Shown piece by piece: positions 19,550-21,991 of a stretch of 64,000 nt of DNA. A program made the position numbers and the translations under genes. Position 1 is the first letter of the stretch. Each line of letters begins with the position of its first letter. This DNA is from Eledone cirrhosa (lineage: Eukaryota): contig OZ024746.1 in assembly GCA_964016885.1 (NCBI GenBank), positions 64,542,001 to 64,606,000 of the forward strand. The letters are read 5' to 3'. The notes beneath the pieces are model-generated. The model was not told the DNA's origin, did not search any database, and saw nothing but the letters and a program-made list of their open reading frames with translations.

Positions 19550-19622
19550 GGTACTATCAATATTTCATATTTTTTAAAGGATTATATTAACTTCAATTGT
19601 GTATTAAACATTCAGTACTTTA

Positions 19623-20197
19623 TCTATAAATGTTCGGTGCATCCATACGTACATATATATATGTGTGCATGTATGTATATATATATACATACTACATGTA
19701 TGTATATATATATACATACTACTTTACGTCTGTATACATATATGTATGTACGTACACATACTTATATTTAAGTAACAGCCGTACTAAGAGTGAGAAATGA
19801 AATTTCGTTTCATTTTTTCCGTTTATCGTTTTCAGTGCGCCCGGCCGATTAACTCACTCGATATGCAAATTAGGCTGCTCAGCCGTTAATATGCATAAGG
19901 AAAGTATATACTTTCAGACGCTCAATCATCTGGCAGGAAGGTATACGTTGCTGACGATAGCTAATAAGCTTAAAACTAGTACAGCGTTCCTTTATCAGTG
20001 TTGAACAAATGAGCAACGATGGTTACTAGACACTGTACGGCTTAATTTGGGATGTTTGTTTACAAACACACCGAGCATTATAATAAATGTTCGGTGAATC
20101 CATACGTACATATATATATATGTGTGCATGTATGTATATATATATACATACTACTGTACGTCTGTATACATATATGTATGTACGTATACATACTTAT
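19623..20197 (+). mobile_element. Retrozyme-like / Penelope pLTR-like non-autonomous insertion (~460-bp monomer plus terminal redundancy)
   Basis: Exact 13-bp flanking duplication ATTCAGTACTTTA (19610-22, 20198-210); terminal direct repeats (~19626-19768 vs ~20084-20197); central hammerhead; CpG-rich relative to the flanks. Confidence 0.7.
19935..19991 (+). ncRNA. Minimal type I hammerhead with palindromic stem III; G12>A lesion
   Basis: ACGTTG(19945-50)/CAGCGT(19982-87) plus AGGA/TCCT stem I; CTGACGA 19951-57; AGCT-aata-AGCT stem II; AAAA in place of GAAA; ACTAGT stem III; GUA site at 19981. Confidence 0.65.
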
Positions 20198-21991
20198 ATT
20201 CAGTACTTTACAACATGTAAAATATTTAATATAATCACGTTAAATAATTATAACATCTTTATTCAAATCTCACTAATTTAAAATAAAATTACCTGCATAT
20301 GTATTCAATTTTTTAACAGATAATTTGCTAGCTACTTTGCACTAGCAGGATAAATTATTTTATTGATATTAAACATAAGAAGGTGCCCCACCTACGTTTC
20401 ATATTTGCCATGAGAATCATGATTAAATGTTTTGTTGTGTAGAAGAAAGGAACTTGTGGTGATATGTTCTTGTTCATAGCATTCAATAAATATGTCTTGG
20501 GGTGGTTAATTATTTTGTAACCTTAGAAGTTGATTAAATGTGTAGTCTTGGCCATAGTATTTATTAAGATTCTTAAAATAAATTTGTGTGTTATGAGGAG
20601 AGGTGAGCTCTGACATTTTAAGCAGGGTCTTTTGTAATAGCTATAACTATCTTCAATGAATAGAGAACTGAAGGGGAAAGTAATTGCTAAGTACTGACTG
20701 TTGAAGAAGAAAATTAATTAGCTAAATATATTGTGTAATGGTCAGAGCTGTACACTGTGTATTTGATTCTTTGTGATAGCTATTTCTATTACCCCACTAT
20801 TGGAAAGGCATGAACACCACAATCTTCCATCCCTTTCTCCCTTTGTATTCAGTAGAACTGATTACCCATTGATGACTGCTTGTGGATACTAAAGGTCAAG
20901 TAACTGAATGTATTGACTGCACTACTACATGGAATAAATACATATTTATCCTTTATATGTTGAATGGCCTTCATATAGAGAGACATAATGACTACAATGT
21001 CTCTGGTATAACTATAATAAAACTCTTCTTTTTATCTGTCTGGTCAATATACTTCGATCTATTTTGTTGTGTGCTAATTCTAATTAACATCTTATATATA
21101 CACGAAAGGCAGATTGCAAGTGCATGGCTGTGAGACATGGGTTTTAAATAGGAAAGACATGTAGAGAGTGAAAAGAAGGAATACTAAGATATTGAGGAGC
21201 AGATTGTAGTAGAGACATATACTAAATAAACAAAAGATAAATGAACTTCTGTTGCTTTCGACAATGAGTATTCTTGTTATACACTCAATGGAATGACCTA
21301 CCCATATCATAATCCCCAGGGAGATTCAGTGAGAGTTAGGGTGTAATAAAGCTGGCTTTTTAAATTACAGACTATCAAACAGGCTTTTAAACAGTTTTCA
21401 TTTCCAATTTCACTTAAAAGGCTTGTGTTAACTGAAAACTATAATGAAAGATGCCCAAAGTGCCCTTCAGTAGGACCAAACTCAGGAATGTGTCCATACA
21501 GACATATCCTACTCCTATCAAAATTGTGAGGTGGGAAAAATCAGTTAGTAAACTGATAATTATGGTGAATTAGAAAACGAATATTACATATTTTAAAGCT
21601 GATTACTATCTTATGGACGTACTTAGTGATTTCATTTAGAAAATATTCTCTTGATCATATTGAGGTTTATTCTAACTTAAACAGCTTAAAATGTCTGTTC
21701 TTTCAAACATTTAATACAGTCAGAGTTTTACTGTCATTATTTGACAGCCTCTGTTTTCTCTCTAATAATTACTGGAGAATCAAGTACAAAGCTGTTGCAA
21801 AATCCATGTCACAAATACTGTTTACTTTAGGATTTCACAAATGCTGGTACAATGAGGGCAAATATATGTAATGTTTTAGTTATTTATACAATAGCTCTTC
21901 ACTTGTCATTCACTTCTCGTTAACGATTAATATTGATATTTTAACTTTCTAATTCTCATCTTTTTTACCTCATGTGAATATATTTATATTA

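What the first reader, a model, noticed from the sequence alone, without database searches (positions are those of the whole stretch)
19610..20210. Retrozyme-like insertion: 13-bp TSD, 1.25 monomers of ~460 nt and a central hammerhead
Seen: exact ATTCAGTACTTTA on both sides; terminal redundancy of ~115-140 bp without TG..CA LTR ends; no coding capacity; minimal hammerhead (19935-19991) with a single G12>A lesion; octamer ATGCAAAT at 19863-19870. Known: metazoan non-LTR retrozymes are non-autonomous tandem units with type I hammerheads and TSDs, and yield circular RNAs. Inference: this copy arose by target-primed reverse transcription more than once around a circular ~460-nt RNA.
Basis: partly seen in the sequence, partly recalled or inferred. 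Interest (0 to 1): 0.8.

Follow-up and report, generated by a model that had tools for sequence, protein, structure and literature searches.

The report
Hammerhead retrozyme with built-in U6-like promoter
This is one damaged copy of a large family of ~430-base non-coding repeats that carry a hammerhead ribozyme fold and a motif pair resembling the host's U6 promoter, and that were likely pasted around the genome by Penelope-type enzymes copying a likely circular RNA from two fixed start points.

Summary
The observation mostly holds. The 13-bp duplication, terminal redundancy, hammerhead and octamer are at the stated places. The monomer is ~430 nt, not ~460, because this copy has a private 27-bp duplication. 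It is a non-LTR retrozyme: 10,651 exact hits of one 26-mer, catalytic core intact in 273 of 341 sampled units, covarying stems. Copies show a Penelope signature: 254 of 326 3' ends fall at two points 59 nt apart, 5' ends are random, and 60 of 63 inverted pairs have one end of each type. Only 3 of 270 passes stop at the cleavage site, which excludes cut linear monomers as template but not uncut multimers. The octamer plus a TATA-like box matches the host's U6 and RNase MRP upstream elements, with 42 rather than 46-48 bp spacing. Octamer-then-hammerhead occurs 35,620 times against 18 controls, in several families. A review states that retrozymes seem to lack promoters. No RNA data, autonomous partner or empty site were found. 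This copy has one hammerhead, with G12>A, and is likely inert.

The parts
19610..19622 (+). Left target-site duplication (13 bp), followed by a 3-nt linker at 19623-19625
19626..19764 (+). 5'-truncated partial unit (unit position q318-431), TA-rich hairpin region, with a private 27-bp tandem duplication at 19668-19722
19765..20200 (+). One full unit of subfamily A; ends at fixed 3' site A (CATACTTATATT, last 3 nt shared with the target)
19768..19826 (+). 59-nt 'tail': hairpin, T6 run (19813-19818) and fixed 3' site B (19826), where other copies end
   Evidence: 109 of 326 arms end at q62; loose TA ends at 19826 in runs X1 and X4
19861..19874 (+). Extended octamer ATATGCAAATTAGG, like the element at -76 to -78 of host U6 and RNase MRP genes
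19904..19911 (+). TATA-like box GTATATAC, 42 bp after the octamer start; predicted start site near 19935 (inferred from the U6 geometry)
19930..19998 (+). Type I hammerhead: extended helix I, core CTGACGA 19951-19957, helix II 19958-19971, G12>A at 19972, palindromic ACTAGT 19975-19980, cleavage after 19981
20083..20200 (+). Right copy of the terminal redundancy
20198..20210 (+). Right target-site duplication
28626..28895 (-). Second, independent copy in the window (subfamily B letters, q226 to site B, no hammerhead core), abutting a TA repeat

Best explanation
This is a 1.27-unit, likely inert copy of a non-coding ~430-nt hammerhead repeat (non-LTR retrozyme) that is likely transcribed from its own octamer-plus-TATA element, predicted to self-cleave as a dimer and close into a circle, and likely inserted by a Penelope-like reverse transcriptase/endonuclease priming at two fixed sites on that RNA. 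Steps: (1) inferred: transcription starts about 47 nt before the cleavage site and reads through the T run into the next unit; polymerase unknown. (2) Inferred from covariation and precedent: two tandem hammerheads pair through the palindromic ACUAGU and release a unit-length RNA that is ligated. (3) Shown as a pattern, enzyme inferred: target DNA, mostly TA repeats, primes at site A (…ACUUAU) or site B (…GUUUAU) 59 nt further on; when both target ends prime, an inverted pair with one end of each kind results. (4) Shown: copying runs through the cleavage junction, mostly on one haplotype, and stops at random. (5) Inferred: more than one turn rebuilds a promoter upstream of a full unit; 32 of 253 arms carry promoter plus two hammerheads and could be sources. 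My odds by part: retrozyme 0.95, Penelope-type insertion 0.9, circle as main template 0.55, working promoter 0.6.
For: Family size: 10,651 exact 26-mer hits vs 0 control. Core intact in 273 of 341 units; 6 of 16 hammerhead pairs change on both sides among 7 related sequences, and slid controls give 0-1. In 185 loci ascertained only by a 26-mer: 138 of 326 3' ends at q50-63 and 116 at q425-10; of 63 inverted pairs with two canonical ends, 60 have one of each; 218 of 263 canonical ends abut TA repeats. Craig et al. (PMC8557442, passages) describe partial tandems, 5' inversions, a tail at one end only and microsatellite bias for Penelope-like elements. Read-through: 3 of 270 passes end at q214-222, 6.5 expected; A/B switches across the cleavage interval 17 of 213; adjacent units differ at 171 of 1649 diagnostic sites vs 5972 of 14276 for random pairs, and share rare variants 85 of 1671 vs 71 of 16191. 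Circular monomers fold at z -6.2 to -9.4 against 40 shuffles each. Promoter: three U6 loci and RNase MRP have ATGCWAAT at -76 to -78 and TATA at -30; a two-part matrix from these four scores the element 24.5 bits (host leave-one-out 19.0-24.4), 0 of 150 shuffles as high, best site in the window; the octamer-to-TATA stretch is 52 of 54 identical between subfamilies A and C vs 73 of 102 downstream (p 1e-4); spacing is 40-43 in seven families or subfamilies. Open Neptune-like frames of 938 and 1096 aa exist in the genome.
Against: No transcript, cleavage or circle was observed. No autonomous element sharing 3' sequence was found among 40 GIY-YIG loci, of 150 scored and 10,596 candidates. Octamer-TATA spacing is 4-6 bp shorter than in host U6/MRP, and 5' ends show no excess at the predicted start (9 vs 10.3). 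A T6-T8 run lies in the path, which Pol III would be expected to stop at, yet copies run through it. The U1/U2-type matrix scores the element negative. The octamer is also one arm of a hairpin in families A, D and E, so RNA structure could explain part of its conservation. The matrix was built after I saw the likeness and from four genes. 37 of 230 adjacent unit pairs differ at two or more diagnostic sites, some mixing subfamilies A and B, and one young array alternates two haplotypes: a single monomer circle does not explain these. The fold z-scores are helped by the TA hairpin, and 11 of 116 A pairs are broken in C.
Confidence: 0.6

Rival explanations
1. Same element and same Penelope-type insertion, but the template is an uncut or partly cut linear multimer transcribed from long genomic arrays; circles, if made, are a side product.
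For: Arrays over 30 kb exist. Mixed A/B and alternating arrays occur. Long linear RNAs have few 5' ends, so no pile-up is expected. A review gives this route for Penelope-like elements (PMC6765202, passage). Eight of nine predicted Xenopus dimers did not cleave in vitro (bioRxiv 10.64898/2026.07.22.740005).
Against: Hammerhead stems covary across families about 65-80% identical, implying selection for cleavage, and any cut product has its 5' end at q217, where ends do not collect. One young array of about 10 units is identical outside its TA run.
Confidence: 0.3
2. The octamer and TATA-like box are not a promoter: they are kept as RNA hairpins or a protein-binding site on the RNA, and the repeats are transcribed by read-through from neighbours.
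For: Off-spacing against U6; hairpin complementarity around the octamer; TATA-like words are common in this TA-rich unit; the review PMC7761336 proposes read-through (passage); no 5'-end excess at the predicted start.
Against: The 3' arm of the hairpin changes between A and C while the octamer does not. Families E and G, with little or no likeness to A beyond the motifs (z 2.1 and -1.1), keep octamer, spacing 40-43 and a hammerhead about 80-100 nt on. 35,620 vs 18 control hits.
Confidence: 0.35
3. The element is the pseudo-LTR end of a coding Penelope-like element, or a TRIM/LTR-type element with fixed ends.
For: The window copy alone looks like repeat-internal-repeat; Xenopus retrozymes match pseudo-LTRs of Penelope-like elements; 20 of 185 loci have a Penelope protein hit nearby.
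Against: Those hits vary in position, strand and family and are not joined to the unit in a fixed way; arms starting at q1-10 are preceded by TA, inverted arms or the previous unit; 5' ends are spread over the whole unit; no TG..CA.
Confidence: 0.05
4. The repeats spread as DNA satellites (unequal exchange, extrachromosomal circles) and the hammerhead is a passenger.
For: Very long arrays and some segmental duplicates exist.
Against: Fixed 3' ends, random 5' ends, A+B inverted pairs, TA targeting and target duplications are marks of target-primed copying. DNA exchange may still lengthen the long arrays.
Confidence: 0.05

Closest known systems
Metazoan non-LTR retrozymes (Cervera and de la Pena 2020, PMC7229834; review PMC7761336; Li et al. 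2026 bioRxiv 10.64898/2026.07.22.740005)
   Same: Non-coding tandem units within the 150-450 bp range, type I hammerhead, GC under 45%, no PBS or PPT, duplications longer than 4 bp when present, highly paired predicted circle, U.U at the base of helix II as in axolotl HHR_Amex2.
   Different: The review says metazoan retrozymes seem to harbour no promoter and no motif pointing to their partner; here there is a conserved octamer-TATA-like element and a full Penelope-type insertion signature. The circle is not shown here. Li et al. sampled 31 vertebrates, 3 insects and 1 anthozoan.
Newt satellite 2
   Same: Tandem hammerhead repeat with weak helix III, active as dimer (PMC7229834 passages); reported to have an internal snRNA-type promoter used by Pol II (citing passages in PMC2220036 and PMC6765202; originals not seen).
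   Different: Here the element matches the host's U6/MRP upstream motif and not its U1/U2 motif; the unit is ~430 vs ~330 nt. The newt precedent means an internal promoter is not unheard of.
Penelope-like elements, Neptune and Naiad clades, and non-autonomous Chlamys such as MRC1 (Craig et al. 2021, PMC8557442)
   Same: Partial tandems, 5' truncation, inverted 5' copy, tail at one end only, TA-repeat targets.
   Different: No coding frame; tail 59 nt rather than 30-40; no shared 3' sequence with the 40 autonomous loci checked.
Schistosoma Sm-alpha hammerhead SINE-like repeats (PMC6765202, passage)
   Same: Tandem copies where an upstream unit's promoter drives the next unit; single copies are dead ends.
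   Different: Sm-alpha is described as Pol III-transcribed and SINE-like (tRNA-type internal boxes, recalled); here the element is an octamer-TATA type.

Membership tests
non-LTR retrozyme | Type I hammerhead in each unit | tested here: met
   273 of 341 units with intact core; covariation; the window copy itself has G12>A
non-LTR retrozyme | Tandem units of 150-450 bp, dimers to multimers | tested here: met
   418-438 nt in most of 113 monomers; arrays
non-LTR retrozyme | No coding frame, no LTR/PBS/PPT, low GC | tested here: met
   GC 0.35-0.38; PBS and PPT judged by eye only
non-LTR retrozyme | Target-site duplication longer than 4 bp when present | tested here: met
   13 bp here; 9-12 bp in 3 of 69 single-arm loci; most others unreadable in TA repeats or absent
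non-LTR retrozyme | Self-cleavage and circular RNA in vivo | not testable with these tools
   needs RNA or a bench assay; predicted fold only
Penelope-mobilised element | Fixed 3' end, variable 5' truncation, partial tandem | tested here: met
Penelope-mobilised element | Inverted 5' copy with tail at one end only | tested here: met
   99 inverted pairs in 185 loci; 60 of 63 with two canonical ends are A+B
Penelope-mobilised element | 3' sequence shared with an autonomous partner | tested here: inconclusive
   no match among 40 GIY-YIG loci of at least 150
Autonomous Penelope-like element | RT plus GIY-YIG frame within the unit | tested here: not met
TRIM / LTR retrozyme | Both ends fixed, TG..CA, 4-5 bp duplication, hammerhead inside the LTRs | tested here: not met
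Host U6-type (Pol III type 3) promoter | ATGCWAAT element and TATA box | tested here: met
   24.5 bits, 0 of 150 shuffles
Host U6-type (Pol III type 3) promoter | 46-48 bp between element and TATA | tested here: not met
   42 in A, B, C; 40-43 in D-G
Host U6-type (Pol III type 3) promoter | Drives Pol III transcription from +1 | not testable with these tools
   no RNA data
Host U1/U2-type (Pol II snRNA) promoter | TCAGT-centred element at -56 to -58 | tested here: not met
   matrix from 8 genes scores the site -7 to -14 bits vs 3-31 leave-one-out

The most novel reading that the evidence does not exclude
Tens of thousands of hammerhead repeats in this genome, in several families, are self-contained transcription units: each carries a captured U6/MRP-type octamer-TATA promoter just upstream of its ribozyme, copies that promoter into the circular RNA, and regains it because a Penelope-type enzyme primes at two fixed sites on the circle and copies more than one turn. 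This would give the whole retrozyme life cycle (promoter, cleavage, circle, partner class, priming sites) from one genome and show how an upstream-type promoter survives retrotransposition.
Probability: 0.4. Interest if true: 0.75.

Novelty: new variant of a known kind. Interest (0 to 1): 0.55.

Why it matters
How metazoan retrozymes are transcribed and which enzyme inserts them are stated as open in the 2020 review and the 2026 preprint that I read. This family makes both testable: a named promoter candidate with a predicted start site, two mapped priming sites, a genome-scale measure that copying crosses the cleavage junction about 99% of the time, and open Neptune-like frames as candidate partners. 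The window copy on its own is an ordinary dead member.

Tried and rejected
Rfam at E up to 1 gave no hammerhead. No RNA holder listed; this says nothing on expression. Contigs of four runs laid on the locus showed the family in runs labelled organisms A, B and C, with G at 19972 in all four, but no listed joint across the insertion (27 joints not shown); an empty allele is neither shown nor excluded. Apparent 5'-end pile-ups at q153-155 were an artefact of subfamily B's 8-bp deletion and faded on re-calling with two references. The excess at q181-187 (12 vs 4.7, p 0.003 uncorrected) would not survive correction for about 60 windows. A TCAG 25 nt before the TATA-like box looked like the U1/U2 element but failed the matrix test. 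Absence of T4 runs between predicted start and T6 is not significant (8.6% of shuffles), and family D often has an internal T5, so I rejected a neat Pol III start-to-terminator unit as the template. End-to-end jumping among cut monomers was rejected. 14 further U6 hits lacked the upstream motifs and look like retrocopies; RNase P has the U1-type element and no octamer. Most other hammerhead families met in flanks lack an octamer within 150 nt. No partner found. Earlier scan findings: nothing in three look-ups. Literature searches for this family or a retrozyme promoter found no report of it; the library lacks most subscription journals, Repbase/Dfam were not searchable, and the supplements of PMC7229834 and of the 2026 preprint were not seen and could list related repeats.

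Full report
OBSERVATION. The 13-mer ATTCAGTACTTTA flanks 19623-20197 exactly. Inside are a partial unit (19626-19764) and one full unit (19765-20200). The first three bases of the right duplication are also the element's last three. The 457-bp spacing includes a private 27-bp duplication; most of 113 family monomers are 418-438 nt. The hammerhead core is CTGACGA (19951-19957), helix II, AAAA for GAAA (19972), a 2-bp helix III around palindromic ACTAGT, and cleavage after 19981. Rfam did not detect it. Unit positions (q) count from window 19765.

FAMILY. The genome is a 3.0-Gb animal assembly; my guess of a cephalopod is from memory of such genomes and was not tested. One 26-mer has 10,651 exact hits and 0 control hits. 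GAAA is present in 24 of the 30 copies most like the window (a ranking that favours shared lesions) and the core is intact in 273 of 341 sampled units. Subfamilies: A (~431 nt, the window copy), B (~422 nt, 8-bp deletion after the TATA-like box), C (~473 nt, best 40 hits 99% identical) and more distant D (466 nt). Median divergence from the A/B majority state is 4.2% over 210 monomers. On an alignment of 7 related sequences, 6 of 16 hammerhead pairs change on both sides and 92% of cells pair; slid controls give at most 1 such pair. Relatedness inflates the shuffle control, so I lean on the slid one.

INSERTION PATTERN. I sampled 185 loci by three 26-mer patterns, dropping overlapping fetches and loci lying inside very long arrays; two pairs of near-duplicate loci remain. 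Of 326 arms with the 3' end in view, 138 end at q50-63 (109 at q62, site B), 116 at q425-10 (site A) and 72 elsewhere. There are 99 head-to-head inverted pairs; of the 63 with two canonical ends, 60 are A+B, 2 A+A, 1 B+B. 218 of 263 canonical ends abut TA repeats; clear non-simple duplications of 9-12 bp were seen in only 3 of 69 single-arm loci. Craig et al. (PMC8557442, passages only) list these features for Penelope-like elements. [quoted passage not shown] None of 40 such loci shares 3' sequence with the repeat beyond TA-rich words and inserted copies. 20 of 185 loci have a Penelope protein hit nearby, in no fixed relation. The partner class is inferred; the partner is not found.

TEMPLATE. 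If cut linear monomers were copied, 5' ends would collect at q217. They do not: 2 of 187 ends in q214-220 against 5.8 expected, and 3 stops in 270 passes. 234 of 324 arms span at least one cleavage site. Random jumping between monomers is also out: A/B switches across the cleavage interval are 17 of 213, and adjacent units differ at 10% of diagnostic sites against 42% for random pairs. This leaves a circle or an uncut multimer. For the circle: selection on the ribozyme, a young array identical outside its TA run, strongly paired circular folds and precedent in coral, mussel and axolotl (PMC7229834, passages and Discussion). Against a single monomer circle as the only route: 37 of 230 adjacent pairs differ at two or more diagnostic sites, with switches at scattered positions, and one young array alternates two haplotypes. 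Template switching, dimer circles, multimers or later DNA exchange could each give this.

PROMOTER-LIKE ELEMENT. Three independent U6 loci and RNase MRP have ATGCWAAT at -76 to -78 and TATA at -30. U1, U2 and RNase P have a TCAGT element instead and no octamer. The repeat has ATATGCAAATTAGG at 19861-19874 and GTATATAC at 19904-19911. A two-part matrix from the four host genes, spacing free from 38 to 50, scores A, B and C at 23.7-24.5 bits, no shuffle of 150 reaches this, and it is the top site in the window. Spacing is 42 in 82 of 83 A/B monomers with both motifs, against 46-48 in host genes. The stretch is 52 of 54 identical between A and C, against 73 of 102 downstream. The pattern octamer, 70-95 nt, hammerhead core has 35,620 hits against 18 for the reversed control; the first 100 include families D, E, F and G, all with a TATA-like word at 40-43. 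D and F are distant relatives of A; E and G show little or no likeness outside the motifs. That search demanded the octamer, so it cannot say what share of hammerhead families have it; most met by chance did not. By U6 geometry the start would be near 19935, at the base of helix I. Against: the spacing, no end excess at that start, a T6-T8 run that copies read through, and a hairpin that includes the octamer. The review PMC7761336 (passages) says retrozymes seem to harbour no promoters; newt satellite 2 is reported to have an snRNA-type promoter used by Pol II (citing passages; originals not seen). I rate a working promoter at 0.6 and cannot name the polymerase.

THIS COPY. It ends at site A in a non-TA target, which is why its duplication is readable. 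It has one hammerhead with a 2-bp helix III and G12>A, so it is predicted neither to cleave nor to yield a unit-length RNA. 32 of 253 arms carry promoter plus two hammerheads.

COMPARISON AND VERDICT. All testable features of non-LTR retrozymes are met; cleavage and circles were not testable. I read three of five parts of the 2026 preprint (abstract to discussion): it links retrozymes to Penelope pseudo-LTRs by co-occurrence and Xenopus homology and leaves mechanism open. What this family adds is the insertion signature, the read-through measure and the promoter candidate. No paper on it turned up in the searches listed under Tried and rejected. Novelty: new variant of a known kind. Interest 0.55.

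Noticed in passing
window 28626-28895 (-): Second, 5'-truncated copy of the same family (subfamily B letters), ending at site B against a TA repeat.
   Followed up: yes
window 29355-29395, 32924-32964, 33833-33873, 37741-37781 and 30625-30676: Two other minimal hammerhead motif families, some as inverted pairs, in and around the 8-kb TA-rich stretch 29452-37310; they look like Penelope-type ends and lack an upstream octamer.
   Followed up: partly
L171, L172, L173, L265, L346-L356, L183-L185, L380 (upstream of position 1501): Host small-RNA promoter anatomy: a shared CTCCCTT/TTCCCTT element at -257 to -286; TCAGT at -56 to -58 in U1 and U2; octamer at -76 to -78 plus TATA at -30 in U6 and RNase MRP. 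RNase P carries the U1-type element rather than the U6 type. These U6 promoters could serve for guide-RNA expression in this lineage.
   Followed up: partly
L367-L371, L128: Family F has several octamer-like repeats in tandem upstream, two 3' ends about 30 nt apart, and a longer helix III. Its core resembles the newt satellite 2 hammerhead as I recall it; a text search for the motif found nothing, so this is unverified.
   Followed up: partly
L151 (6622-3809, -), L153 (875-4162, +), L154: Long open Neptune-like RT plus GIY-YIG frames, near-identical among copies, suggesting recent activity; the L154 family has CCAAT and TATA boxes before its hammerhead.
   Followed up: partly
L326-L345; G000:C1 97.00-97.04 Mb; G000:C28 36.03-36.05 Mb; G000:C1 5.738-5.752 Mb: Very young subfamily C (99% identical copies) and long tandem arrays of B and D, possible source loci.
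   Followed up: partly
window 19296-19525: The left flank is itself a multi-copy repeat (high contig depth), not identified.
   Followed up: no
window 25581-26459 and 57189-57467: A 21-bp minisatellite (42 copies, 96% matches) and a 47-bp tandem (6 copies).
   Followed up: no
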